Shown piece by piece: positions 13,165-64,000 of a stretch of DNA of 64,000 bases. The notes below the pieces were generated by a model, which ran no database searches, had not been told where the DNA came from, and worked only from the letters and a program-made list of their open reading frames with translations. Position 1 is the first letter of the stretch, and the number at the start of each line of letters is the position of its first letter. The position numbers and the translations under genes are program-made. Source of the stretch: Eubacteriales bacterium (lineage in GTDB: Bacteria; Bacillota; Clostridia; Oscillospirales; CAG-382). The stretch lies in assembly GCA_050953105.1 (NCBI GenBank), contig JBMNMA010000009.1, positions 261,143 to 325,142 on the forward strand, given 5' to 3'.

Positions 13165-13167
13165 AAT
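13139..13167 (+). promoter_or_regulatory. Probable SigA promoter for thiT embedded in the oadA 3' end
   Basis: TTGTAA-17 nt-TAAAAT; predicted start falls at the riboswitch 5' edge. Confidence 0.55.
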
Positions 13168-13171
13168 TTAA

Positions 13172-13242
13172 TAACGGGGTGCTGTAAAAAGCTGAGATTA
13201 TACCCGCTGAACCTGTTCGGATAATGCCGGCGTAGGGAAAAT
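13172..13242 (+). ncRNA. TPP (THI-box) riboswitch
   Basis: GGGGTGCT..GCTGAGATTATACCC.CTGAACCTG..GGATAATGCC.GCGTAGGGAA consensus, upstream of a thiamine transporter. Confidence 0.93.
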
Positions 13243-13262
13243 AGATACCGATTATTGTTTTC

Positions 13263-15439: not shown

Positions 15440-15531
15440 GGAAAGATGGCTGAGTTGGTCTAAGGCGCACGACTGGAAATCGTGTGACGGCTAATACCCG
15501 TCCCAGGGTTCGAATCCCTGTCTTTCCGCCA
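15440..15531 (+). tRNA. tRNA-Ser (anticodon GGA)
   Basis: GGAAAGA/TCTTTCC acceptor stem, CACGA-CTGGAAA-TCGTG anticodon arm, long variable arm, GGTTCGAATCC T-loop, encoded CCA. Confidence 0.97.
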
Positions 15532-50539: not shown

Positions 50540-51541
50540 ATGGCAAAATTTGAAGGATACGAAAGACGCGAAGCGAAAATTCTTGAAGTCATAAAGCAGT
50601 ACGGTATTTCCTCTATTGACGAATGCAAGGAAATCACCCTTGAAAAAGGAATTGACGTTGATAACATCGTCCGTTCCACCCAGCCTATCTGCTTTGAAAA
50701 CGCCATTTGGGCATACACCGTCGGTGCTGCAATAGCCATTAAAAAAGGCTGCACCAAGGCCGCAGACGCCGCCGCAGCCATAGGCATAGGCCTTCAGGCT
50801 TTCTGCATTAACGGCTCTGTTGCCGAAAACCGCAAGGTGGGCCTCGGCCACGGCAATCTCGGCAAGATGCTCCTTTCCGAAGAAACCGAATGCTTCTGCT
50901 TCCTTGCCGGACACGAATCCTTTGCTGCCGCTGAAGGCGCTATAAAGATAGCCCTCAACGCCAACAAGGTAAGAAAAAATCCCTTAAGAGTTATACTCAA
51001 CGGTCTTGGCAAAGACGCCGCTTACATAATTTCCCGTATAAACGGCTTTACCTACGTTAAAACCGAATTTGACAACAACACCGAAACCATTAAGGTGGTA
51101 TCCGAAACCCCCTTCTCCAACGGTCCCCGTGCTGCCGTAAAGTGCTATGGCGCCGACAATGTTCCCGAAGGCGTGGAAATCATGAAGCTTGAAAACGTAA
51201 GCGTTTCCATAACCGGTAACTCCACCAACCCCACCCGTTTCCAGCATCCCGTTGCAGGCACCTACAAGAAATGGTGTATTGAAAACGGCAGGAACTATTT
51301 CTCCGTTGCCTCCGGCGGCGGCACCGGCCGTACACTCCACCCCGACAACATGGCAGCCGGCCCCTCCTCCTACGGCATGACCGACACCATGGGCAGAATG
51401 CACTCCGACGCCCAGTTTGCCGGCTCCTCCTCCGTTCCCGCACACGTTGAAATGATGGGCCTTATAGGCATGGGTAACAACCCCATGGTTGGCGCCACCG
51501 TCGCCTGCGCCGTTGCGATTGAGGAAGCATTTAATAAATAA
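50540..51541 (+). CDS. GGGtGRT protein
   Basis: Eponymous SGGGTGRTLHPD motif; FLAGHESFAAAEGA; QFAGSSSVPAHVEMMG. Confidence 0.92.
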   Translation: MAKFEGYERREAKILEVIKQYGISSIDECKEITLEKGIDVDNIVRSTQPICFENAIWAYTVGAAIAIKKGCTKAADAAAAIGIGLQAFCINGSVAENRKVGLGHGNLGKMLLSEETECFCFLAGHESFAAAEGAIKIALNANKVRKNPLRVILNGLGKDAAYIISRINGFTYVKTEFDNNTETIKVVSETPFSNGPRAAVKCYGADNVPEGVEIMKLENVSVSITGNSTNPTRFQHPVAGTYKKWCIENGRNYFSVASGGGTGRTLHPDNMAAGPSSYGMTDTMGRMHSDAQFAGSSSVPAHVEMMGLIGMGNNPMVGATVACAVAIEEAFNK

Positions 51542-53790: not shown

Positions 53791-53819
53791 TTGACAAAAA
53801 AACACTGTCATGCTATAAT
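53791..53819 (+). promoter_or_regulatory. SigA promoter of the riboswitch operon
   Basis: TTGACA-17 nt-TATAAT with extended TG. Confidence 0.88.
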
Positions 53820-53842
53820 CAACGCGAATCATTGGATTCCCA

Positions 53843-53924
53843 CGTAATGGCAAACTTCACGAAAGTGTAGGGCGCAAAACTAAAGGGCCTACGGACAAAA
53901 AATGTCTATGGCAGCCAGTTGCCG
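53843..53924 (+). ncRNA. c-di-GMP-I (GEMM) riboswitch
   Basis: GGCAAAC-TTCAC-GAAA-GTGTAG-GGCGCAAAAC-TAAAGGGCCT...ATGGCAGCCAGTTGCC. G at 53849 (Vc2 G20 equivalent) favours c-di-GMP over 3',3'-cGAMP. Confidence 0.9.
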
Positions 53925-54164
53925 TTTTAATATGCAGAAAATAACGACAGGCATATTTTGCATTGTCGTAGCATGACATTTTTTAAATGAGTGCATTTCT
54001 CTGCTCTTAAAAATGCAACCGGGCGCTGGGACATATGGCGCTGGGTTTTTTAATTCCTTCCTTTCCGGTATGTCTTGCTTTTATCGGGAACAATGATTGT
54101 TCAAGGTATAATTAATGTTATTATTAACTGCCGTAAGGCGGTTGAAAGAAAGGAAGGTATAAAA

Positions 54165-54554
54165 ATGAAAATGAGAAGAAGACTGGCAATTGTTCTCGTA
54201 GTAGCTCTTGTTTGCTCGGCATTTGTATTTACGGTATCCGCTTCCGCCAAGGGAGGTCCCAAATCGGGTCCCACAAAGGCTGAACTAAAGGTTCTTGAAG
54301 TAATGGTCGATACCGCCAATGCAACAATAGCCGCGCTTGTCAAAGTGGCTCAGCTTACCCCCTACAACGATGTTCCCTGGTTACTTAAATCGGTTGACGC
54401 AATTGTCGCTGCAGTTGACGCTTACGCAGAATCCATCGGTGCCGATATAGGCTGCACATACGTGGGGTATTACATTGACGGTCAGTACGTGCTGATTGAC
54501 CCGATTTGGATAGTAAACCCAATAGTACCTCCTGATCCCGATGAGAAGGATTAA
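54165..54554 (+). CDS. Secreted protein of unknown function
   Basis: Sec signal peptide MKMRRRLAIVLVVALVCSAFVFTVSASA; AAGGAAGG RBS; first gene after the riboswitch. Confidence 0.8.
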   Translation: MKMRRRLAIVLVVALVCSAFVFTVSASAKGGPKSGPTKAELKVLEVMVDTANATIAALVKVAQLTPYNDVPWLLKSVDAIVAAVDAYAESIGADIGCTYVGYYIDGQYVLIDPIWIVNPIVPPDPDEKD

Positions 54555-54557
54555 TCG

Positions 54558-54902
54558 ATGCCGAAGGTGCTGAAAAAATTTAATCCTGGTACACGGAACA
54601 GAAAAATCTGCGACTGTCTCAGGAGAGTCGCAGATTTATCATTCGTGGACAAAATTTATATTTACGGCTCCTACGCCAAGGGCAACCCCACCGAAAACAG
54701 TGACCTTGATATTGCCGTTTTTTTTAACCTTGATGAGTCGAAAATGCTTGAATGCTATCGAAAGCTGGTTAACATTTGTCGAATACCGGAACTGGACATT
54801 CAGATACAGGCATTCCCTTCAAGCGAGCTTATAAGCCCCTGCGGAATTATTGAGGAGATAGTGAAATACGGCATTCTTTTTCCCTTTTTCCTGAAAGGAT
54901 AA
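54558..54902 (+). CDS. Minimal nucleotidyltransferase (MNT, Pol-beta superfamily)
   Basis: IYIYGSYAKG....NSDLDIAV motif; DIQIQAF...GIIEEIVKYG C-terminal pattern. Confidence 0.88.
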   Translation: MPKVLKKFNPGTRNRKICDCLRRVADLSFVDKIYIYGSYAKGNPTENSDLDIAVFFNLDESKMLECYRKLVNICRIPELDIQIQAFPSSELISPCGIIEEIVKYGILFPFFLKG

Positions 54903-54907
54903 CTTAA

Positions 54908-55863
54908 ATGGAAGGCGTATTCATCAATAAACGGAATACGGATAGCAATACACCTGAAGTAAATTCGTGCAGGTGTAAAGCTTCTTGCAAAATTTGGCGA
55001 CATGGAAATAATGGAACAATCATTTATCGAAGGTGCTACAGTTTGGCTTTCCCCTGCAGAAGATCCGAACGCATGTGAATTTTACTTTATTCATTCCGGC
55101 GAAGTTGAATTGAACTTGATCGATGAAACTGTTCCTTAAGCCGGTGACTCCTTTACGTTAAAGGGCTTAAACGTGACATTAATCGTAAATCAAACTTAAC
55201 ACAAAGATAGTTTATTTTTCAACAAACCTATTTATGAAGAAAAAAAGGATTTTGAAATCTATCTAAAAGCATTGATTACACAAATCGACTCAAAAGACCA
55301 TTATACCGCCCGTCATAGTATGAATGTAATGAATTATGCTGTAAAAATTTACGAAACAATGTTTGAGTCGTATAAAGACATGGATAACGAAGCGAAATTA
55401 AAAGATGCTTAAAGATATTGTCGTAGCTTCCCTTTTCCATGATGTCGGAAAATGCAATACCCCCGACGAAATATTAAAAAAGAAGGGCAAACTTGAGTCG
55501 GAAGAAATGAAAGTCATTAGGCACCATCCCGTTGATACGGGCAGGCTGCTTAGAAAATATTATAACAACAGGATAGCCGAGATAGCCGAAAATCACCATG
55601 AACGGATTGACGGTTCGGGTTATCCCTTTGGCCTTTCTGGCCACGAATTATCTACCGAAGCCAAAATACTTGCGGTTGTGGACGCCTTTGACGCCATGAC
55701 CACCGACCGGGGATACAACAACGTCAAGTCCTTTGCCGATGCTGCCGAGGAACTGTATAACCTTCCCCACCTCTTTGACCACGAGGTGGCGTCGGTGCTG
55801 AAAAGGCTTGTAGACGAAGGAAAAATAGCACAGGCAAGGAAGAAGAACGATGGACAGCAATGA
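54908..55863 (+). pseudogene. Cupin + HD-GYP phosphodiesterase gene with multiple frameshifts in the 5' half
   Basis: Fragments across frames: MEGVFINK.., AGVKLLAKFGD..EFYFIHSGEVEL (cupin), GDSF, TKIVYFST, DSKDHYTARHS, then intact FHDVGK, HHERIDGSGYP, DAFDAMTTDRGY from 55405. Confidence 0.8.
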
Positions 55864-56311
55864 AAAATACGCCTATTGGCTTATGCTTTCGGATTATGAT
55901 ATGGACACTATTGACTGCTTAATAAAGGGCGAGCGGTGGGTTTATGTGGCCTACCTATGCCAGCAGGCAATAGAACGGCAGCTTAAGGGCATGTATGTTT
56001 ACTATACCAACAACGAAGCTCCCAAAACCCACAATGTAAATTTCCTGTTTTCGAAAATCCAAAGCAACGAAAAATTCCAGTCCCACCCGGATATTGTCAG
56101 GTTTAACGAGGGAAAGACCGAATGTGAGGATTTTTTGGTGGACGTTATGTTTTACTACATGTCCGACTATCCCTTTTCCTACAAAAACATAACAAACCGG
56201 TTTATAAACAAGGAAAACGCCCTTGGACTGTATGAAAAAACCAAAACCATGTTATCCTGGCTCCGCTCTTTTCAGCCCCATGTGGATATACCGAAACCCT
56301 ATAAAGATTAA
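55850..56311 (+). CDS. HEPN domain protein (PF05168-type)
   Basis: YWL..SDYDMDT, YVAYLCQQAIERQLKG, APKTHNV; overlaps the HD-GYP stop. Confidence 0.85.
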   Translation: MDSNEKYAYWLMLSDYDMDTIDCLIKGERWVYVAYLCQQAIERQLKGMYVYYTNNEAPKTHNVNFLFSKIQSNEKFQSHPDIVRFNEGKTECEDFLVDVMFYYMSDYPFSYKNITNRFINKENALGLYEKTKTMLSWLRSFQPHVDIPKPYKD

Positions 56312-56335
56312 CCCCTGAAACGGGGTTTTTATTTT
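56310..56335 (+). terminator. Terminator closing the riboswitch operon
   Basis: AACCCC-TGAAAC-GGGGTT-TTTATTTT. Confidence 0.75.
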
Positions 56336-56433
56336 GTCTGCCCATATAACAGCAAAACCCCGCATTTGAGGGTGCGTCTTAGGGATTTTCAATCCCGGAA
56401 AAATATCGGCATAGTTTGGTATGTATTTACCGG

Positions 56434-58167
<1,734 letters not shown>

Positions 58168-58180
58168 TCAAGTTATTTGT

Positions 58181-58342
58181 TTAAAAAGCCTTATTTAATT
58201 CAAGATTTGCTGTGCCGTTAAGTATCATGCGTTTCAGCTTGTCGTAAGCAGTCTCTTTGGCAGTGCTGCTGACCGCCGATTCTATAATGTAGAGCGTATC
58301 ACCGATTACTTTTTCGGTAACGCTGATAGTCTTTTCAGACAT
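58181..58342 (-). CDS. tnpW: Transposon-encoded TnpW family protein
   Basis: KVIGDTLYIIESAVSSTAKETAYDKLKRMI; directly upstream of the recombinase; GGAG RBS. Confidence 0.8.
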   Translation of the reverse strand: MSEKTISVTEKVIGDTLYIIESAVSSTAKETAYDKLKRMILNGTANLELNKAF

Positions 58343-58367
58343 AAAGACACTCCTCCTTCCTGACTCT

Positions 58368-58462
58368 GGGGGTAGGGGGTAATAAATCCTTACACCCTTT
58401 CGATTGTGCAACGGGCGTGGGGTTTCGCGCGAAAAAACGCGGATTCAAACGGGGTATTAAAG
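58368..58462 (+). other. Candidate cos/packaging-site-like sequence
   Basis: GGGGGTAGGGGGT..AAATCC..AACGGGCGTGGGG..CGCGCGAAAAAACGCGGATTCAAACGGGG resembles non-coding regions next to terS in Firmicutes cos phages (pattern recall only). Confidence 0.35.
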
Positions 58463-58583
58463 GAACAACCGGGATAAAATTCATATAATTGAAATAAACT
58501 TGGTGTGTATTTCATCTTGAAAAGTGCTTTTTTAGGTGAAAAGGCACAGCAGGATTTTCCACTGTGCCTTTCCACCATATGTC

Positions 58584-59531
58584 TTAACCGTTGGTTCCAG
58601 TATTCTTCTGAATTACCTTCACTGCCTCTTGGCGGATAAGTTTTCCGTCAATAAACTCAAAGGCAAGGTAACCCATCTGGTCGAGCAGGGCAAACTTCTC
58701 TGAGAGTGCCCTCACGCTGACAGGGCTTCTGCAGATGATCCAGTAGTAGCTAAAATCACCGAAGGCTATAGGCTTTGAATCAGACTCCATATCCGGCATA
58801 AACTCTGATATAAATACCTTTTTACCGAGGATGGTATCATCGCTGTCGCGCCAGAGGTAGTTTCCGGCTTCGTCTTTCAACGTACGCAAGGCAAGGGCTG
58901 TCTTATCGTTCATGAGCCATACAGCATTTTTGCGGTATTCCGGCTTCACAGAGAAGTACAGGCGGATTATATGATCATAGGTGATTTCATCGACGGAATA
59001 TGCAACCTCAGCGCCGTTTGCATCGTTTAAGATACCTGTCGGCATTTGCACACCGGTACCGTTAATAAAGGCGTTGTCCTCAGCTTTGGCAAAGTTCCTG
59101 GCAAGGCGCTTTACAAGGTAGCTTTCAATGTCGAATGCGGCATCGCGGACAAAGTCTGAATTCATTTTTACAAGAGCAGCGAGCTTATGGCTTTCAACGG
59201 TGTATTGAGTGAAATCGTTTAGTCCGTCAAAAACTGGGATAGCGCCGCCTTCCGGCACAAATTGCACAAGGTCATCGTATTCCTTTGCAAGGATGTGATA
59301 ACTGCCTTCATATACGTTAAAGGTTGTGCCGATTTTACGGAACAGGCTCTCGTTTATGATGGCTGCTTCATATTTGTTATTTGTGGTATTTGGCATGACA
59401 TAAGTACCCGTCTCGCTGCTGCGGCCTTCGGAAAGTCCAGAATAATCGCTTTCCTGGCCGCGCATGGCGTTCCAGAAGTGCCTGCTGTATTCCGGCTGAC
59501 CGGTATATACTCTGACTTCAGTATAATTCAT
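58584..59531 (-). CDS. HK97-fold phage major capsid-like protein with a short N-terminus
   Basis: GTYVMP, FVPEGG.IP, HKLAALVKMNSDFVRD, AFINGTG..MPTGIL, WLMN, PIAFGDFSYY, RIDGK-like FIDGKLIRQEA; start ATG 59531 behind GGAGG. Confidence 0.9.
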   Translation of the reverse strand: MNYTEVRVYTGQPEYSRHFWNAMRGQESDYSGLSEGRSSETGTYVMPNTTNNKYEAAIINESLFRKIGTTFNVYEGSYHILAKEYDDLVQFVPEGGAIPVFDGLNDFTQYTVESHKLAALVKMNSDFVRDAAFDIESYLVKRLARNFAKAEDNAFINGTGVQMPTGILNDANGAEVAYSVDEITYDHIIRLYFSVKPEYRKNAVWLMNDKTALALRTLKDEAGNYLWRDSDDTILGKKVFISEFMPDMESDSKPIAFGDFSYYWIICRSPVSVRALSEKFALLDQMGYLAFEFIDGKLIRQEAVKVIQKNTGTNG

Positions 59532-59544
59532 GGCGTTCCCCTCC

Positions 59545-59850
59545 TTAAATCTTATCGCAGAATGGACAGGCATAGAGACCGAGGTCATGGTAGCTGAGCG
59601 ATCTTCCTACCTGTTTCAAGTGGTGGTGGCATTTCGGACACAGAATGCTATATGCCATAGCCCCTTCAATGGTATGAGGATGCTTTGCATGGAGGCGGTA
59701 TCGCAATTTTAACTTTCCTTTATCATCTTCGATGACAACATCGGAAAGATGCAGGTCGCACATGGCATGGGCATACTCATCGGAATAATAAGTGTGCTGC
59801 GGCCGCAGCAGAGTGCCTTCCTTGTTCATTTTCATAAGCGGATAATTCAT
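59545..59850 (-). CDS. Small Zn-finger hypothetical protein
   Basis: CPKC...CPFC; GGAGG RBS before ATG 59850. Confidence 0.7.
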   Translation of the reverse strand: MNYPLMKMNKEGTLLRPQHTYYSDEYAHAMCDLHLSDVVIEDDKGKLKLRYRLHAKHPHTIEGAMAYSILCPKCHHHLKQVGRSLSYHDLGLYACPFCDKI

Positions 59851-59973
59851 GTTTTTTCCCTCCTCAAAATTAAGATGTTTGAATGTGGTTGATGATATTT
59901 CCTGTAGATCTAATTGCTGAGCGCTGATCATGACGTATCACTATAGCTGTTCCTCCCTCCAGTGATACTTCCG

Positions 59974-60269
59974 GTGACAGAAGTGACAGTTCAGTGACAG
60001 TAGTTTTGATGAACTGTCACGCTGAAAAGCGGCTTGCAGCAAGGCTTTTAAAGCTTCAGTGACGAAAGTGACAGAACTTTTCATTTCATACTCACAACAA
60101 CTCATAATCTTTTCCTTGTTCTCTGTACAATTCCAAACTTTATTCTTCCCGCTAAGAAGTTTGAAAGACTGTCACTTCTGTCACTTGTGGCTGGAAACCC
60201 TTGATATATGGGCGTTTTCGCGGTGACAGTTGCCTGTGAGAACTGTCACTCGACTGTCACTTCTGTCAC
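59974..60269. repeat. Iteron array, putative replication origin
   Basis: GTGACAG at 59974, 59983, 59994, 60068, 60223; CTGTCAC at 60014, 60169, 60178, 60243, 60254, 60263; variant GTGACGA at 60059. Confidence 0.88.
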
Positions 60270-60271
60270 TT

Positions 60272-61411
60272 TTAAGAAAGAAAATCCGTACTGTCATAAC
60301 CATAAGCCTTCTTGTACTGCTCCTTTGCCTCAATAGTGAGGGTGAGATTTTTATAATAGGTGCCTTTATTGGTATGAACGGTCATCTCCTTAAAGGTGCA
60401 GCCGAGATGGGATGCCAATGTCTCTCTGAACTCTTTGGCTGTCTTGGCAAAGCCGTTATTGTTGTCATGGCACCATGCCCTGTAAACATCATAGATGCGG
60501 CTCGTTGTAGCGGAATCATTAAACTTGCCTTCTGACCGCTCGCACATACATTCCTCATAGAAGGAGATCACAGTATTGTTCTCTGACATATATTGCTCTC
60601 TTGCAAGGCTTACACTGTCCGGCTCGGGAAAGCTGTACCCGTTTGCAATAACCGTCTGCAGCGCCATAACAGCCTTGTAGACGATGCCATCACGCTCGGC
60701 ATACATTTTGTCAAGGAGTGTTTTGTCCTGCTTGTCCTTTGGAATGACATTAGGGCAGCGCACCACCATGATGCGGTCATAGACCCATTTGCCATCATCG
60801 CCGCCAAACTTGGGAAGTCTGTTCATGCAAAACCAGAGCAGCCCGTTGTAGGTGAACTCAAAGGCCTGCTGTCCTTTGAACTCGGCATATAGGCTGTCGC
60901 CGCCGGTAATTTTCTTAAATGTTTTCAACTCATCTACGGATAAAAAACTCATATCAGAGCTACCGGCAAGGCGTGTGCCATATATCGCGCCGGTGCCGAA
61001 ACGCGCTTCAATCTCCTTAAGGTCGATTCCTATAAAGTTACCCTTGCCGAGCAACCGCTCTACAAGACTCTTTAGCTGAGATTTGCCGGTGTCGCCATCG
61101 CCGACAAGGAAAAGCGCTTTTTTCATTCGCCATCCCTTGATGTTGGAGATGCATACACCGATAAACTCAAGGAGCAGGTGTTCTATGGCCTTGTCTCCGT
61201 CCGTGAGGGTGTGCATATACCTGTCGAAGACCGGCGTGGGCGTTTCCCTTCCCGACCAGTTGCACGGAATCTGAATGGTGGAGAGGATATCCGGGGAGTG
61301 TGGTAGAAGAATGGCATTATCTGCAGTGATACGGAGCAGGCCATTCCTGAAGTTGATTAAATCCTCATCGGCATTTAGCTCGCCGTTTTGTCCACCTCCT
61401 CTCCGCTGCAT
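60272..61411 (-). CDS. P4/D5-family primase-helicase, SF3 helicase part only (N-terminal primase domain absent)
   Basis: INFRNGLL, LLPHSPD..ST.QIP (D5_N), GDGDTGKS Walker A, KKITGGD, NRLP, DRIMVVRC. Confidence 0.85.
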   Translation of the reverse strand: MQRRGGGQNGELNADEDLINFRNGLLRITADNAILLPHSPDILSTIQIPCNWSGRETPTPVFDRYMHTLTDGDKAIEHLLLEFIGVCISNIKGWRMKKALFLVGDGDTGKSQLKSLVERLLGKGNFIGIDLKEIEARFGTGAIYGTRLAGSSDMSFLSVDELKTFKKITGGDSLYAEFKGQQAFEFTYNGLLWFCMNRLPKFGGDDGKWVYDRIMVVRCPNVIPKDKQDKTLLDKMYAERDGIVYKAVMALQTVIANGYSFPEPDSVSLAREQYMSENNTVISFYEECMCERSEGKFNDSATTSRIYDVYRAWCHDNNNGFAKTAKEFRETLASHLGCTFKEMTVHTNKGTYYKNLTLTIEAKEQYKKAYGYDSTDFLS

Positions 61412-61423
61412 TTTGTGCTTCCA

Positions 61424-61600
61424 TTATTCATTCGCCGAGTTTATGACCAGCCACTCCTTAAAGGCTTCAACCGGAATCAGGATTCTCGTACCAACTCGTA
61501 TGACTGGAAATCCCTGCTTTTTTACAAGTTCATAGGCCTTCGGCAGACTAATGCCCATCTGCGCCGACAGTTCCTGCACACTCATGGTCGTCTTTTCCAT
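61424..61600 (-). CDS. Excisionase-like HTH_17 protein
   Basis: MSVQELSAQMGISLPKAYELVK..GFPVIRVG.RILIP..AFKEW; AGGAGG RBS. Confidence 0.88.
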   Translation of the reverse strand: MEKTTMSVQELSAQMGISLPKAYELVKKQGFPVIRVGTRILIPVEAFKEWLVINSANE

Positions 61601-61832
61601 ATACTCTTTCCTCCTTATCTTGATAGTTGTTTCGGTTTCCACATCCACCATTCGCTACCGTTCCTAAGGCAGCCACCTGCTCGTGGTCTCCCCGTATCCG
61701 ATTGCAGCAGAAGCGCTCCGGCTTTCACCATCGTGGCGGCTACGCTGCAAAAGTATCTCTTGCGGGCGGACTATTCAGTTGTCAAGGATCCGGAAATTAA
61801 GTGGTTTTACAATTTGTTCTTGTATTCAATGC

Positions 61833-61878
61833 CATTGTATAATACAATGTAAGTGATGTTAAATTTTCATCGCTTACA
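61833..61878. promoter_or_regulatory. Inverted repeats over divergent promoters
   Basis: CATTGTAT-A-ATACAATG (contains TATAAT) and TGTAAGTGATG-N9-CATCGCTTACA. Confidence 0.6.
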
Positions 61879-61907
61879 ATAACGATTACATTCAAAGGAT
61901 GATTGCC

Positions 61908-62858
61908 ATGAAAAAACTACCGGTAGAAAATCTCGGTTTCGTTGAAATTGGCGGCGTTGGCGAGATGATATATAGGGCTGTGCGATTTCCCGAGTATATC
62001 ACGGACTATGACAATGACGGCGAAATAATTAAACCTATCTTCACAGGGGGCCATGCTCCGGAAAGCGGTACTGATTACTCCTTAACCGGGCAGGAACTAT
62101 TGGTCAGCCTATGTAATCTTTACGGAAAATTAAATAACCCAGACAGCACTGTTCCGGTTACAGATGCCGTCTGGGATTGGTGCAGAAACAATATTCACCC
62201 CTACAACATAGACAGTCTTTATGAAATGCTGGATAGCGAGAAGTTTGCACATATAACGTACATGGATTTGATTCAGAAAGATGCCACATTCTATGTAGAT
62301 CAATTCATAAAGGATCTATGCAGTCTGGGTACTGTATTTGAGCTTTACTTTGCCTTGAGAAGGGTTAAATACTACGGAGAAATCGACTACGCAAGGAATC
62401 TTTATTATGAAGGCAGGCTTTGCGACAGCCTCGCTTTTCTTGAAAGACACCGACAATACGAGGATGATGAGGAATACAAGGCCCGTATATTAGAGAATTA
62501 CAATGAACACATATCCCAAGTGATTGATATGTTCCCGGACTTCCGTATGAGACTGAAATTGGATAAGAAAACCGGGAAAGTGATGTACGGCGCCGACATT
62601 CAATCGGTATTCGATATTTGCTGGTACACCTTTTCCAGAATGGTAGCAGACGTTGCACCACCAGTAGATGAAGACCTTAACTATTTTGAATCGCAAGGCA
62701 CGATACTGTCATGCCTTGCCTGCGGGAAATACTTTGTGCGGCATTCAAGCCGCCAGTTATATTGTAATAATTGGGATTGCCAGGCCGAGCGTAATCGAAA
62801 AAACAGGCGAGCAAGCTATGCAAGAAAGAAGGCGGCGGGAGTAAAGAACAAGGAATAA
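61908..62858 (+). CDS. Hypothetical protein with a C-terminal CGNR-like Zn finger
   Basis: CLACGKYF..HSSRQLYC..WDCQAERNRKNRR; divergent from the xis/rep operon. Confidence 0.7.
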   Translation: MKKLPVENLGFVEIGGVGEMIYRAVRFPEYITDYDNDGEIIKPIFTGGHAPESGTDYSLTGQELLVSLCNLYGKLNNPDSTVPVTDAVWDWCRNNIHPYNIDSLYEMLDSEKFAHITYMDLIQKDATFYVDQFIKDLCSLGTVFELYFALRRVKYYGEIDYARNLYYEGRLCDSLAFLERHRQYEDDEEYKARILENYNEHISQVIDMFPDFRMRLKLDKKTGKVMYGADIQSVFDICWYTFSRMVADVAPPVDEDLNYFESQGTILSCLACGKYFVRHSSRQLYCNNWDCQAERNRKNRRASYARKKAAGVKNKE

Positions 62859-62866
62859 AAATTGAA

Positions 62867-62903
62867 CTCGCTACCAGCCACATGGTATGAGTATGGTAGC
62901 GAG
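62867..62903. terminator. Hairpin between convergent genes
   Basis: CTCGCTACCA/TGGTAGCGAG 10-bp stem. Confidence 0.55.
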
Positions 62904-62917
62904 ACAGATGTGGTTTA

Positions 62918-64000
62918 TTAATCTCTCTTTAATATTTCACACAGAGGCAGAATTTCTTCCAGCTTTTTAACAATGCGCTTTTGCTCTGCGAGGGGCGGGA
63001 GAGGTATTAGTGCATTTTTCAACATATCTTGCGTTATTTGATTAATGGTGGTAGTACCAGTATCTTCAAGCAAGGAATTCCTGAAATATGCTGAATTTAT
63101 TACATGAAGAACATACGGATTGCAAATACTTCTATAAACTGCCATGAATGCGCCGAAGCTCATGCCTTCTCGATCCACAATTGCAGCTTTGCCTACAAGC
63201 CGTTTGCTGCCATTCCGAGCGCAAATTAAAATATCACCTATATGGCACATCTTGTTTTCGGGAATATCCATATTGACTCTTACAATATCTTCATAGTCCA
63301 TCTGACCATCTCGGATATTGTTGGATCGTAGCACAATTGTACCATCACTTGTTTGATTCTGAGGACTATATGTTAGGCCAATATTTGTATAACCAATTTC
63401 ACCTAATTTAACCCACTTCCAACTCTCTGGAATATCAAACGGTATCTCAGCCTCTGAAATTTCTGGCAATGGTTTTTCTTTTTTGATTTTTCCTTCCTTA
63501 ATAAGTCTTTGCTTTTCAACCTGAATCTGTTGATAAAGCTCCTCGGCTGTGCCTTCCTCCGGGCGCTGTTCGACCAGTTTGCCCCGGATTGCTAACTGGA
63601 GGATGGATTTATGCAGATCGCTCGGGAAACGCTTATTGAGCTCTTCAAGCTTGCTCCATGCCTTATCATAGCGCTCGATATACGGCATCAATTCATCGAT
63701 TTTTGCAACAATGCGCTTTTGCTCGGCAAGTGGTGGGAGGGGAACAGAAAGTTTGTGCAAAACCTTTGAAGATAAACCTTGAATTCCAATCCCTTTTCCA
63801 TTTATAAGACCTGCATTTTTGTACAAAAAGAAAATATAATAAAAGAACTCAATACAGATTTCATTAAATGGACGTAATCTGTGTATATGATTCTGAATAC
63901 GCATAGGAAAATCATAATTCCAGATAGCTGCTCTTCCAATATCGCCACCTTCTAGAACTAATAAATCTCCTTTTTGAACAGTACATTTTTCAATTTCAGC
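62918..64000 (-). CDS. hsdS: Type I restriction-modification specificity subunit (5' end outside the window)
   Basis: Frame open to the window edge (KGDLLVLEGGDIGRAAIW), two PLPPLAEQKRIV repeats, EIPFDIPESWKWVKLG linker. Confidence 0.92.
   Translation of the reverse strand, partial: AEIEKCTVQKGDLLVLEGGDIGRAAIWNYDFPMRIQNHIHRLRPFNEICIEFFYYIFFLYKNAGLINGKGIGIQGLSSKVLHKLSVPLPPLAEQKRIVAKIDELMPYIERYDKAWSKLEELNKRFPSDLHKSILQLAIRGKLVEQRPEEGTAEELYQQIQVEKQRLIKEGKIKKEKPLPEISEAEIPFDIPESWKWVKLGEIGYTNIGLTYSPQNQTSDGTIVLRSNNIRDGQMDYEDIVRVNMDIPENKMCHIGDILICARNGSKRLVGKAAIVDREGMSFGAFMAVYRSICNPYVLHVINSAYFRNSLLEDTGTTTINQITQDMLKNALIPLPPLAEQKRIVKKLEEILPLCEILKRD

What the first reader, a model, noticed from the sequence alone, without database searches (positions are those of the whole stretch)
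53791..56335. Candidate new c-di-GMP circuit: riboswitch -> secreted protein -> MNT -> cupin-HD-GYP -> HEPN
Seen in the sequence: a consensus promoter, a c-di-GMP-I aptamer, four genes spaced 3 bp, 5 bp and -14 bp apart, and one terminator. Established: HD-GYP domains hydrolyse c-di-GMP, and MNT/HEPN pairs are toxin-antitoxin-like modules in which the MNT modifies or binds the HEPN. Inference: c-di-GMP controls a unit that contains its own degrading enzyme (feedback), an exported effector and a nucleotidyl-transfer/HEPN switch. The MNT might even make or transfer a nucleotide signal that the HD-GYP reverses. I know of no described system with this composition.
Basis: partly seen in the sequence, partly recalled or inferred. 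Interest (0 to 1): 0.75.

Follow-up and report, generated by a model that had tools for sequence, protein, structure and literature searches.

The report
c-di-GMP riboswitch-gated four-gene cassette
An RNA switch that senses the bacterial signal c-di-GMP sits in front of a four-gene operon (small secreted protein, nucleotidyltransferase, c-di-GMP-type phosphodiesterase, HEPN protein) that recurs in the same order in many uncultured Clostridia and was not found described in the papers searched, although in this genome the phosphodiesterase gene is broken.

Summary
A perfect sigma-70 promoter (53791-53819) and a c-di-GMP-I aptamer (53839-53926, 74.6 bits against a cutoff of 35) precede four tightly packed genes and a terminator at 56310-56335. 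Folding predicts an OFF switch.

The cupin-HD-GYP gene is a multi-lesion pseudogene in this window. Conspecific strains carry it intact.

The same order, riboswitch -> secreted protein -> MNT -> cupin-HD-GYP -> HEPN, recurs in about 18 distinct loci from different species and genomic contexts. Searching from HEPN, the cupin-HD-GYP gene lies directly upstream in 26 of 26 loci. A c-di-GMP-I-clan riboswitch heads the cassette in every locus where this could be tested.

The older core is secreted protein + cupin-HD-GYP. MNT and HEPN look like a later bracket around the phosphodiesterase.

The toxin-antitoxin reading is not supported. The HEPN is HEPN-T type with no conserved Rx4-6H motif, is highly conserved, and stays intact where MNT has decayed.

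My best reading is a riboswitch-gated phosphodiesterase feedback operon with an exported effector and a domesticated MNT/HEPN regulatory pair. No description was found in the literature searched.

The parts
53791..53819 (+). Sigma-70 promoter: -35 TTGACA (53791-53796), 17-nt spacer with TG extension, -10 TATAAT (53814-53819)
   Evidence: 12 of 12 consensus matches with TG before the -10. Identical in conspecific contigs L001 and L003.
53839..53926 (+). c-di-GMP-I (GEMM-I) riboswitch aptamer
   Evidence: RF01051, 74.6 bits (gathering score 35), E=8.4e-13, model positions 1-87 of 87. Orthologous aptamers score 65-82 bits ahead of the same cassette in other species.
54017..54051 (+). Leader intrinsic terminator (stem 54017-54045, T-run 54046-54051), the predicted expression platform. 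Its 5' arm and the bases upstream of it (about 54014-54035) are complementary to the aptamer 3' strand GGCAGCCAGUUGC (an antiterminator).
   Evidence: One search finds a terminator-like site at 54022-54042 plus T6. In one search the terminator forms when the aptamer is enforced (-56.3 kcal/mol), whereas the unconstrained minimum-energy fold (-67.1 kcal/mol) pairs the aptamer P3 3' strand with the terminator region. An analogous GCCAGUUGCC / GGCAGCUUGGC complementarity appears in about 11 of 19 orthologous leaders with a detectable terminator.
54165..54554 (+). Small secreted protein (SSP, 129 aa). Sec-type signal peptide (MKMRRR, hydrophobic stretch, SASA|K) and a mature alpha-hairpin + 4-strand beta domain. 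New family with no Pfam, NCBIfam or PDB match.
   Evidence: Searches give no family hits., 32 alignment shows a conserved C-x-Y-x-x-Y-x-DGQ-x-VLIDP motif. One search finds 257 representative clusters. AF2 pLDDT 76.7, about 90 in the core. Searches find no structural neighbour. The ATG at 54165 has an AGGAAGG ribosome-binding site, and a 129-aa cluster member on a 531,595-bp NCBI contig, which I take to be this genome's own record, has the length this start gives.
54558..54902 (+). Minimal nucleotidyltransferase (MNT, 114 aa from the ATG, or 111 aa from the GTG at 54567). The catalytic G37-S38 ... D49-x-D51 ... D80 residues are intact.
   Evidence: Polbeta 1.8e-11, NTP_transf_2 5.1e-10; invariant GS, DxD and D80. 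MntA model 37.9 bits, below its cutoff of 60.
54908..55863 (+). Cupin-HD-GYP phosphodiesterase PSEUDOGENE. Lesions: +1 frameshift near 54968, in-frame TAA at 55137-55139, -2/-1 indels near 55190/55223 with TAA at 55197-55199, +1 frameshift near 55407. The C-terminal HD-GYP part (55405-55863) is still an open 152-aa ORF with HHERIDGSGYP.
   Evidence: tblastn gives three segments in three frames. Intact 315- or 319-aa orthologues occur in conspecific contigs L001-L010. HD_5 9.9e-30; closest PDB sequences are V-cGAP3 (5z7c) and PmGH (4mcw).
55850..56311 (+). HEPN-T domain protein (153 aa). It overlaps the end of cupin-HD-GYP by 14 nt. No Rx4-6H motif. Invariant E-P-K-T-H61-N and S-D-Y-P-F-S-Y-K-N motifs.
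   Evidence: PF05168, 38.3 bits (cutoff 22). AF2 pLDDT 89; top Foldseek hits are 1ufb, 1wol, 4nqf, 3o10, 2hsb and 1o3u, all HEPN; motif statistics; tight family at 59-83% identity.
56310..56335 (+). Operon-end intrinsic terminator (stem AACCCC-TGAAAC-GGGGTT followed by a T-run)
   Evidence: Identical in L001 and L003.
56367..64000 (.). Context only, not part of the cassette. A strain-specific inserted mobile element starts about 40 bp after the terminator: large serine recombinase 56434-58131 (-), HK97-type capsid 58584-59588 (-), D5-like primase 60272-61411 (-), type I R-M S subunit 62918-63904 (-).
   Evidence: Homology to conspecific contigs stops at 56366; those contigs continue with DUF624 and a Xer-like integrase instead. 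Pfam hits. No match in the phage collection.

Best explanation
This is a conserved operon of anaerobic Clostridia that I did not find described. A c-di-GMP-I riboswitch with a transcription-terminator platform gates it. In its intact form it encodes four proteins:
1. a small exported protein of a new family;
2. a catalytically competent minimal nucleotidyltransferase (MNT);
3. a cytoplasmic phosphodiesterase made of a non-enzymatic cupin sensor domain and an HD-GYP domain;
4. an HEPN-T protein whose translation is coupled to the phosphodiesterase.

Proposed working (inferred unless marked otherwise):
- At low c-di-GMP, the aptamer's 3' strand pairs with the 5' arm of the leader terminator. This forms an antiterminator and the operon is transcribed.
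- At high c-di-GMP, the aptamer closes, the terminator forms and the operon goes silent. This makes it an OFF switch.
- The operon encodes a c-di-GMP-type hydrolase, so the result is self-reinforcing, bistable-type feedback that locks in a low-c-di-GMP state. The secreted protein acts as the extracellular output of that state.
- MNT and HEPN-T are not a free-standing toxin-antitoxin pair. They are a domesticated pair dedicated to the HD-GYP enzyme. HEPN-T acts as a binding or regulatory subunit. MNT tunes the complex through nucleotidyl transfer, by analogy with enzymes that combine NTase, HEPN-like and HD domains.

In this genome the phosphodiesterase gene has decayed. Only the riboswitch-controlled secreted protein, MNT and HEPN can still be made.

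Shown by the data: the anatomy, the conservation, the riboswitch identity, the pseudogene state, and the family and fold assignments.

Inferred: the sign of the switch, the substrate, the MNT/HEPN role, and the role of the secreted protein.
For: Anatomy.

Intact cassette in conspecific strains.

Conservation:
- Same order with different flanking genes in L011, L014, L016, L017, in 14 metagenome loci and in L127-L129.
- Cupin-HD-GYP lies directly upstream of HEPN in 26 of 26 HEPN-anchored loci. The phosphodiesterase stop overlaps the HEPN start by 4-17 nt in 22 of the 26.
- A c-di-GMP-I-clan aptamer heads the cassette wherever upstream DNA exists.
- The riboswitch also precedes reduced versions: SSP + phosphodiesterase in L013 and L023, phosphodiesterase alone in L021, SSP alone in L125.

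OFF-switch logic: the terminator forms only when the aptamer is enforced. Complementarity between the aptamer 3' strand and the terminator 5' arm recurs in orthologous leaders.

Phosphodiesterase: the HD-GYP motifs (HD, HHExxDGSGYP) are invariant in the family. PDB relatives are HD-GYP phosphodiesterases. The cupin part has no conserved metal-binding His cluster.

Against a toxin-antitoxin role:
- HEPN has the HEPN-T fold and no conserved Rx4-6H.
- HEPN is 59-83% identical across lineages in which the phosphodiesterase is 44-62% and MNT 38-56% identical.
- HEPN is intact where MNT is deleted (L106) or has lost GS/DxD (L123).
- One contig (L126) has the phosphodiesterase and HEPN in a single 486-aa ORF.

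Domestication of MNT-HEPN pairs into regulatory nucleotidyltransferases was proposed by Anantharaman et al. 2013 (PMC3710099).
Against: - No experiment supports any step. The sign of the switch rests on thermodynamic folding only. Eight of 19 leaders did not show the complementarity in my simple script, and z-scores against shuffles are modest (-1 to -5).
- The substrate is unknown. The best PDB sequence match is a 3'3'-cGAMP-specific HD-GYP (5z7c).
- HEPN-T keeps an invariant His61 in the helix2-helix3 loop. Anantharaman et al. suggest this position could form an alternative RNase site in AF0298-like proteins, so RNase activity is not excluded.
- The natural MNT-loss evidence comes from two related metagenome contigs.
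- The L126 fusion is a single contig that retains HEPN's own ribosome-binding site and ATG. It could be an assembly error or the simple loss of a stop codon.
- Several two-gene relatives (L018, L019, L020, L024) have no detectable riboswitch.
- The function of the secreted protein is unknown.
- In the window itself the loop is broken.
Confidence: 0.6

Rival explanations
1. MNT and HEPN form an ordinary type VII/II toxin-antitoxin (addiction or stress) module. HEPN is an RNase toxin neutralised by MNT AMPylation. The pair merely brackets the phosphodiesterase gene and stabilises the locus, or adds growth arrest to c-di-GMP control.
For: MNT and HEPN co-occur and appear to have been gained together. 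The MNT catalytic motif is intact and gives a weak MntA hit. MNT gives weak hits to the PADLOC candidate PDC-S09. HEPN-MNT pairs are the best-known context for these domains (PMC7641770 and PMC3710099). Invariant His61 might provide an alternative active site.
Against: - The HEPN is PF05168/HEPN-T, not DUF86/HepT, and has no conserved Rx4-6H.
- MntA scores 37.9 bits, below its cutoff of 60.
- The two genes are never adjacent; a 0.95-kb gene always separates them.
- This HEPN subfamily is found only next to cupin-HD-GYP (26 of 26) and is unusually conserved for a toxin.
- HEPN is intact where MNT is deleted or degenerate.
- HEPN gives no PADLOC hit.
Confidence: 0.15
2. This is a self-contained nucleotide writer/eraser module. 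MNT, with HEPN-T as its substrate-binding subunit, synthesises a nucleotide signal or nucleotidylates a target. The HD-GYP enzyme hydrolyses that product rather than, or as well as, c-di-GMP. The riboswitch then simply places a second signalling module under c-di-GMP control.
For: NTase + HEPN-like + HD is the domain set of GlnD-type transferase/removase enzymes, and HEPN serves as the substrate-binding domain of Pol-beta NTases (PMC3710099). The best PDB match of the HD-GYP domain is a cGAMP-specific enzyme. The three genes are tightly linked and coupled.
Against: Cupin-HD-GYP exists widely and ancestrally without MNT or HEPN, so its substrate cannot depend on them. HEPN persists without MNT. 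A 107-114-aa MNT has no precedent here as a cyclase. There is no biochemical evidence.
Confidence: 0.15
3. The anatomy is the same but the riboswitch is an ON switch, so c-di-GMP induces the operon. This would give homeostatic negative feedback: high c-di-GMP makes more phosphodiesterase.
For: Both ON and OFF c-di-GMP-I switches exist (established knowledge). My sign call is purely thermodynamic. Eight of 19 leaders did not show the antiterminator pairing in the automated test.
Against: With the aptamer enforced the terminator forms. Without the constraint, the aptamer 3' strand pairs with the terminator 5' arm. The same complementary motif pair recurs in L014, L016, L017, L098, L102, L106, L110, L117, L119 and L123.
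Confidence: 0.25
4. Chance accretion, or an anti-phage defence island next to a mobile element. On this view the four genes are functionally unrelated neighbours in this genome.
For: A mobile element with a serine recombinase and capsid gene lies 40 bp downstream. The cupin region is hypervariable between strains, as in conflict loci. HEPN and NTase domains are common in defence systems.
Against: The mobile element is absent from conspecific contigs that carry the same cassette. The cassette order is conserved across species with unrelated flanking genes. There is no PADLOC system match.
Confidence: 0.03

Closest known systems
c-di-GMP-I (GEMM-I) riboswitch-controlled operons of Firmicutes, for example C. 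difficile Cd1 upstream of flgB (a terminator-type OFF switch), and GEMM elements reported upstream of GGDEF/EAL/HD-GYP genes (own knowledge)
   Same: Same aptamer class. The platform is an intrinsic terminator. It controls a gene of c-di-GMP turnover and a secreted product.
   Different: The downstream gene set (new secreted-protein family + MNT + cupin-HD-GYP + HEPN-T) was not found in any paper searched. The regulatory sign has not been measured.
HepT/MntA (HEPN/MNT) type VII toxin-antitoxin systems (Shewanella SO_3165/3166, PMC4621449 and PMC7641770; Legionella, PMC11586414)
   Same: A Pol-beta-fold minimal NTase with GS...DxD together with an HEPN-superfamily protein in one operon, with MNT upstream of HEPN.
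   Different: - The HEPN is HEPN-T (PF05168), not DUF86, and has no Rx4-6H.
- MNT scores below the MntA cutoff.
- A phosphodiesterase gene separates the two genes.
- HEPN is obligately linked to the phosphodiesterase and survives loss of MNT.
GlnD-type uridylyltransferase/uridylyl-removing enzyme, and kanamycin nucleotidyltransferase (NTase + HEPN-like substrate-binding domain, with an added HD domain in GlnD)
   Same: The same three domain superfamilies (Pol-beta NTase, HEPN-like, HD) act together. Anantharaman et al. propose that such enzymes arose by domestication of MNT-HEPN pairs.
   Different: Here the three are separate genes. The HD domain belongs to the HD-GYP subfamily with a cupin sensor. 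The HEPN is PF05168, not PF08335 or PF07827. There are no ACT domains. This is an analogy only; membership was not shown.
Characterised HD-GYP phosphodiesterases: PmGH (4mcw), PA4781 (4r8z), V-cGAP3 (5z7c)
   Same: The HD-GYP catalytic core and its motifs are conserved in the family.
   Different: The N-terminal domain is a cupin-like fold that lacks the metal-binding His cluster, rather than REC, GAF or similar. No paper on a cupin-HD-GYP architecture was found. The copy in this window is a pseudogene.

Membership tests
c-di-GMP-I riboswitch (Rfam RF01051) | Covariance-model score at or above the curated gathering threshold over the full aptamer | tested here: met
   74.6 bits against 35, model positions 1-87 of 87. 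Orthologues score 65-82 bits.
c-di-GMP-I riboswitch (Rfam RF01051) | Expression platform coupled to the aptamer (terminator/antiterminator or RBS sequestration) | tested here: met
   Terminator at 54017-54051. It forms when the aptamer is enforced and is disrupted by pairing with the aptamer 3' strand otherwise. This is in silico only.
c-di-GMP-I riboswitch (Rfam RF01051) | Selective binding of c-di-GMP (as against cGAMP) | not testable with these tools
   Needs in-line probing or ITC. Two orthologous loci carry the c-di-GMP-I-GGC variant instead (L023, L108).
HD-GYP phosphodiesterase (Pfam HD_5 / PF13487) | HD metal-binding motif and HHExxDGxGYP signature | tested here: met
   Window residues FHDVGK and HHERIDGSGYP lie in the 55405-55863 fragment. 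HD_5 E=9.9e-30. The motifs are invariant in 25 family members.
HD-GYP phosphodiesterase (Pfam HD_5 / PF13487) | Intact open reading frame encoding the whole catalytic domain, including the first metal-ligand His upstream of HD | tested here: not met
   The window gene is split over three frames with two in-frame stops. The family-invariant 'HS' His lies in a different fragment. The gene is intact in L001-L010.
HD-GYP phosphodiesterase (Pfam HD_5 / PF13487) | Hydrolysis of c-di-GMP | not testable with these tools
   Needs an enzyme assay on an intact orthologue.
[quoted passage not shown] | Toxin is a DUF86/HepT-type HEPN with a conserved Rx4-6H RNase motif | tested here: not met
   Only PF05168 matches. 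Structural neighbours are HEPN-T proteins. An R-x(4-6)-H pattern occurs in 3 of 35 sequences, each at a different column.
[quoted passage not shown] | Antitoxin matches the MntA equivalog model | tested here: not met
   NF047752 scores 37.9 bits, below its cutoff of 60.
[quoted passage not shown] | Adjacent two-gene module, with the toxin not tolerated without the antitoxin | tested here: not met
   Cupin-HD-GYP always separates the two genes. HEPN is intact with MNT deleted (L106) or degenerate (L123). Toxicity itself was not assayed.
HEPN-T (Pfam PF05168) | Pfam score above the gathering threshold and a four-helix HEPN fold | tested here: met
   38.3 bits against 22. AF2 pLDDT 89. Foldseek probability 0.99-1.00 to 1ufb, 1wol, 4nqf, 3o10 and 2hsb.
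Minimal nucleotidyltransferase (Pol-beta superfamily) | G-S-x(9-11)-D-x-D motif plus a third acidic residue | tested here: met
   G37, S38, D49, D51 and D80 are invariant in 6 orthologues. Pfam Polbeta and NTP_transf_2 score above their cutoffs.
Known anti-phage defence systems (PADLOC-DB v2) | Component proteins match the models of one defined system | tested here: not met
   Only weak MNT hits to candidate PDC-S09. There were no hits for HEPN or SSP, and only a weak HD-domain-level hit to a Cas3 model for the phosphodiesterase.

The most novel reading that the evidence does not exclude
MNT, HEPN-T and cupin-HD-GYP form one three-part enzyme system, a split analogue of GlnD-like transferase/removase enzymes. 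In it a nucleotidyl mark or a dedicated nucleotide signal is written by MNT/HEPN-T and erased by the HD-GYP domain, under ligand control through the hypervariable cupin sensor. The whole module, together with a new secreted effector, is switched by c-di-GMP through the riboswitch. That would be a second messenger or modification cycle nested inside c-di-GMP signalling, and the first assigned function for a 'domesticated' stand-alone HEPN-T/MNT pair.
Probability: 0.2. Interest if true: 0.85.

Novelty: new variant of a known kind. Interest (0 to 1): 0.66.

Why it matters
c-di-GMP signalling in gut and digester Clostridia is poorly charted. HD-GYP enzymes are the less understood class of c-di-GMP phosphodiesterases.

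This cassette offers several openings:
1. A compact, conserved test bed for riboswitch-driven feedback on a phosphodiesterase.
2. A new family of small secreted proteins that are direct c-di-GMP riboswitch outputs (257 representative clusters).
3. A natural case in which an MNT/HEPN pair, usually filed as the most abundant toxin-antitoxin family, appears to have been recruited as a dedicated partner of a signalling enzyme. This bears on the long-standing question of what non-toxic HEPN-T/MNT pairs do.
4. A frequent neighbour, a second c-di-GMP-I riboswitch driving a Flp/Tad pilus operon, which suggests a local switch between lifestyles.

The broken gene in this genome and the MNT-less variants in others are ready-made natural mutants.

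Tried and rejected
- Exact-sequence look-ups of the window's SSP (129 aa), its MNT allele and the truncated HD ORF found nothing on record. The pseudogene allele could therefore not be confirmed in an independent assembly.
It returned mostly unrelated HD-GYP proteins (Streptomyces, Vibrio and others), and only L016-L025 were informative.
- SSP gave nothing in Pfam, NCBIfam, PADLOC, a PDB sequence profile, Foldseek against PDB or Foldseek against BFVD. Its function stays unknown.
- The HEPN profile against PDB sequences gave no hit. Only the structure search placed it.
- A relaxed Rfam search found no hidden riboswitch in the two-gene loci L018, L019, L020 and L024, nor in L022 and L025.
- I tried to call ON or OFF for the second riboswitch ahead of the Tad operon. 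Folding gave a strong terminator but no clear alternative pairing, so I made no call.
- The organism could not be named. Context suggests a cohesin-encoding Clostridia lineage, and related MAGs are labelled Eubacteriales, Clostridiales or Oscillospiraceae.
- The downstream mobile element has no match in the phage collection.
- The chance-accretion and defence-island readings were rejected on synteny and PADLOC.

Full report
1. WHAT IS IN THE WINDOW

The coordinates 53791-56335 run exactly from a promoter to a terminator.

- The promoter is TTGACA-17 nt-TATAAT with a TG extension (53791-53819). It matches 12 of 12 consensus positions and is the only perfect site in the region.
- Twenty bases downstream, Rfam places a full-length c-di-GMP-I aptamer at 53839-53926, at 74.6 bits against a gathering score of 35.

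Four ORFs follow:
- 54165-54554: a 129-aa protein with a Sec-type signal peptide and no Pfam hit.
- 54558-54902: a minimal nucleotidyltransferase (MNT), matching Polbeta and NTP_transf_2.
- 54908-55863: cupin + HD-GYP.
- 55850-56311: an HEPN protein (PF05168).

Each start has a plausible Shine-Dalgarno sequence, read directly from the sequence. A hairpin plus T-run at 56310-56335 ends the unit.

2. TWO CORRECTIONS TO THE OBSERVATION

First, the leader contains its own intrinsic terminator. The stem is at 54017-54045 and the T6 run at 54046-54051, about 110 nt before the first start codon.

Second, the cupin-HD-GYP gene is not intact here.
- Translation shows the N-terminus in one frame and the cupin and linker parts in a second frame, with two in-frame TAA codons (55137, 55197).
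- The HD-GYP domain lies in a third frame.
- Against intact relatives, tblastn gives three segments in three frames.
- A nucleotide alignment with conspecific contigs pinpoints a +1 indel near 54968, -2 and -1 indels near 55190 and 55223, and a +1 indel near 55407.

These lesions are mostly outside homopolymer runs and sit beside base substitutions that create stops. I therefore read a genuine pseudogene rather than sequencing error. I could not confirm the allele in an independent assembly.

3. CONSPECIFIC STRAINS

The window's exact HEPN protein occurs on many metagenome contigs (L001-L010). These contigs carry:
- the same upstream genes (GGGtGRT protein, TypA/BipA);
- the same promoter, riboswitch and leader at 100% identity;
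- the same four genes, with an intact 315- or 319-aa cupin-HD-GYP.

Homology to the window ends at 56366. The other strains continue with DUF624, a Xer-type integrase and a cohesin gene. The window instead has an inserted element with a large serine recombinase, an HK97-type capsid gene, a D5-like primase and a type I R-M S subunit. So the mobile element is a strain-specific neighbour and not part of the cassette.

4. IS THE GENE ORDER CONSERVED?

Homologues of the intact phosphodiesterase, about 310 aa with cupin + HD-GYP over the full length, are numerous in Clostridia.

Context look-ups and an HMM-based annotation of fetched loci (my own profiles for the four families) show the order SSP -> MNT -> cupin-HD-GYP -> HEPN in:
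- L011 (62% phosphodiesterase identity, different upstream genes);
- L014 (53%; flanked by a GH3 gene and a Tad pilus locus);
- L016 and L017.

An independent scan anchored on HEPN returned 29 metagenome loci.
- In all 26 with upstream DNA, cupin-HD-GYP lies immediately upstream of HEPN.
- In 22 of those 26 the phosphodiesterase stop codon overlaps the HEPN start by 4-17 nt.
- Of the 16 loci with at least about 2 kb upstream, 14 have the complete four-gene order.
- Three further four-gene loci came from SSP look-ups (L127-L129).

A c-di-GMP-I aptamer scoring 65-82 bits heads the cassette in every locus where enough upstream sequence exists. In L108 it is the related c-di-GMP-I-GGC variant. The four-gene, riboswitch-led arrangement therefore occurs in about 18 distinct loci with unrelated flanking genes. 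Chance accretion is excluded.

5. CORE AND ACCESSORY PARTS

Reduced versions of the cassette exist:
- Riboswitch -> SSP -> cupin-HD-GYP in L013, and in L023 with the GGC variant.
- SSP -> cupin-HD-GYP with no detectable riboswitch in L018, L019, L020 and L024. The riboswitch was not found even at E <= 0.1.
- Tandem riboswitches directly before cupin-HD-GYP in L021.
- Riboswitch -> SSP alone in L125.

In a neighbour-joining tree of the phosphodiesterase, the deep branches are SSP-only or solo. The four-gene type fills a crown clade with a few SSP-only members interspersed. The tree has no support values, so this is suggestive only.

The simplest history is an older SSP + cupin-HD-GYP pair, usually riboswitch-led. 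MNT and HEPN were then added once as a bracket around the phosphodiesterase gene and occasionally lost.

6. THE FOUR PROTEINS

SSP
- It has a signal peptide and then a well-predicted helical hairpin plus four-stranded sheet (AF2, about 90 pLDDT in the core).
- It has one invariant Cys and a C-x-Y-x-x-Y-x-DGQ-x-VLIDP motif.
- It has no family, sequence or fold match anywhere I could search.
- A profile search of 1.84 billion representatives finds 257 clusters, all small proteins.

MNT
- It keeps G37-S38, D49-x-D51 and D80, so it is probably catalytically active.
- It scores below the curated MntA cutoff.

Cupin-HD-GYP
- The HD-GYP half has all signature residues, including HHExxDGSGYP.
- Its nearest solved relatives are V-cGAP3, PmGH and PA4781.
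- The cupin half lacks a conserved metal-binding histidine cluster. It is therefore more likely a ligand sensor than an enzyme.

HEPN
- It is PF05168.
- Its AF2 model (pLDDT 89) matches the classical HEPN-T structures TT1696, ST0689, 4nqf, sacsin HEPN, AF0298 and TM0613.
- It has no conserved Rx4-6H. Only 3 of 35 sequences show the pattern, each at a different position.
- At the end of helix 3, where that motif sits in active HEPN RNases (PMC3710099), this family has an invariant S-D-Y-P-F-S-Y-K-N.
- An invariant His61 lies in the helix2-helix3 loop. This is the position of the 'alternative' histidine discussed for AF0298-like HEPN-T proteins. RNase activity is therefore unlikely in the canonical form but not excluded.

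7. IS MNT/HEPN A TOXIN-ANTITOXIN PAIR?

The evidence points away from it.
- The two genes are never adjacent.
- This HEPN subfamily is found only beside cupin-HD-GYP (26 of 26).
- It is the most conserved protein of the cassette. It is 59-83% identical across lineages in which the phosphodiesterase is 44-62% and MNT 38-56% identical.
- In two related contigs HEPN is perfectly conserved while MNT is gone. L106 keeps only a 26-aa remnant. In L123, GS has become GP and DxD has become DAG. A toxin that needs its antitoxin should not survive this.
- One contig (L126) has the phosphodiesterase and HEPN in a single 486-aa reading frame. HEPN's own ribosome-binding site and ATG are retained there, and it is a single assembly, so I treat it only as a hint of a fusion.

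Together with the overlapping stop and start codons, this supports HEPN-T as a partner subunit of the phosphodiesterase. MNT would be a modifying or regulatory accessory. This fits the 'domestication' scenario of Anantharaman et al. for MNT-HEPN pairs. It also resembles the NTase + HEPN-like + HD domain set of GlnD-type enzymes. That comparison rests on my own knowledge and is an analogy, not a membership claim.

8. SIGN OF THE SWITCH

- Folding the leader with the Rfam aptamer structure enforced leaves the 54017-54045 hairpin plus U-run intact (-56.3 kcal/mol).
- Without the constraint, the minimum-energy structure (-67.1 kcal/mol) pairs the aptamer's P3/P1 3' strand (GGCAGCCAGUUGC) with the 5' arm of the terminator.
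- The same pair of complementary motifs (GCCAGUUGCC in the aptamer, GGCAGCUUGGC in the terminator arm) recurs in L014, L016, L017, L098, L102, L106, L110, L117, L119 and L123.
- Eight other leaders did not show it in my simple script.

I therefore predict an OFF switch in which c-di-GMP binding causes termination. I give this about 60% confidence.

If that is right, the operon is expressed at low c-di-GMP and makes a c-di-GMP-type hydrolase. That is self-reinforcing rather than homeostatic feedback.

9. COMPARISON WITH WHAT IS KNOWN, AND NOVELTY

Riboswitch control of c-di-GMP turnover genes and of secreted or surface proteins is a known theme. HD-GYP enzymes and MNT/HEPN pairs are known families.

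I could not find any description of the following in 8 million full-text papers and preprints:
- this cassette;
- a cupin-HD-GYP architecture;
- an HEPN-T/MNT pair dedicated to a phosphodiesterase;
- the SSP family.

PADLOC does not recognise the cassette as a defence system. I classify it as a new variant of a known kind: a riboswitch-gated c-di-GMP feedback operon with a new secreted-protein family and an apparently domesticated MNT/HEPN-T module.

10. VERDICT

The unit is real, conserved and c-di-GMP-linked, and I found no prior description.
- In this genome its phosphodiesterase is dead.
- The toxin-antitoxin framing is probably wrong.
- The feedback is probably positive.
- Function beyond family assignments remains inferred.

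Noticed in passing
window 54458-55470, compared with L001 and L003: The 3' end of SSP, the MNT N-terminus and above all the cupin domain form hypervariable islands between conspecific strains. L001 and L003 are 56-62% identical at the nucleotide level across the cupin region, while the promoter, riboswitch, HD-GYP domain and HEPN are 99-100% identical. The window is a mosaic: its SSP/MNT block is L003-like and its cupin block is a degenerate L001-like allele. This suggests recombination or diversifying selection on the sensor domain.
   Followed up: partly
window 56367-64000: A strain-specific inserted element starts about 40 bp after the operon terminator. It carries a large serine recombinase (56434-58131, -), an HK97-type capsid gene (58584-59588, -), a D5-like primase (60272-61411, -) and a type I R-M S subunit (62918-63904, -). 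Conspecific contigs lack it and it has no match in the phage collection. Its far end lies outside the window. It may be a phage satellite or a prophage remnant.
   Followed up: partly
L014 6466-6555; L098 4505-4591; L117 4580-4671; L119 4530-4619; L122 3627-3711; L111 3153-3237: In other species a second c-di-GMP-I riboswitch sits directly after HEPN. It leads a Flp/Tad pilus operon (prepilin peptidase, several Flp pilins, TadE-like proteins, RcpC). The cassette therefore often neighbours another c-di-GMP-riboswitch-controlled surface-structure operon. The sign of that switch could not be called.
   Followed up: partly
L023 4278-4353; L108 1288-1372: In two loci the c-di-GMP-I-GGC variant aptamer (RF03167) occupies the position of the c-di-GMP-I aptamer ahead of the same cassette. 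This natural swap could help assign a ligand to the variant.
   Followed up: no
L126 1035-2495: Cupin-HD-GYP and HEPN are read as a single 486-aa ORF. There is no stop before HEPN's own ribosome-binding site and ATG. This is either a Rosetta-stone fusion or an assembly artefact, and it comes from a single contig.
   Followed up: partly
L021 2023-2107 and 2197-2281: Tandem c-di-GMP-I aptamers lie directly upstream of a cupin-HD-GYP gene that has no SSP, MNT or HEPN.
   Followed up: no
L106 1468-1545; L123 2781-3056: These are natural MNT-loss variants. L106 keeps a 26-aa MNT remnant and lacks SSP. L123 has a degenerate MNT in which the catalytic GS and DxD are lost. Both keep the riboswitch and intact phosphodiesterase and HEPN genes.
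   Followed up: yes
window 13165-13255 and 15440-15528: A TPP riboswitch (62.9 bits) and a long-variable-arm tRNA (56.4 bits) lie elsewhere in the window. Neither is related to the finding.
   Followed up: no
window 50540-51541: A GGGtGRT-family protein (PF14057, E=6.5e-193) of unknown function lies two genes upstream, before TypA/BipA. It is conserved in the conspecific contigs.
   Followed up: no
L108 4848-4958 (-): A NiCo riboswitch lies about 1.2 kb downstream of the cassette in one metagenome locus.
   Followed up: no
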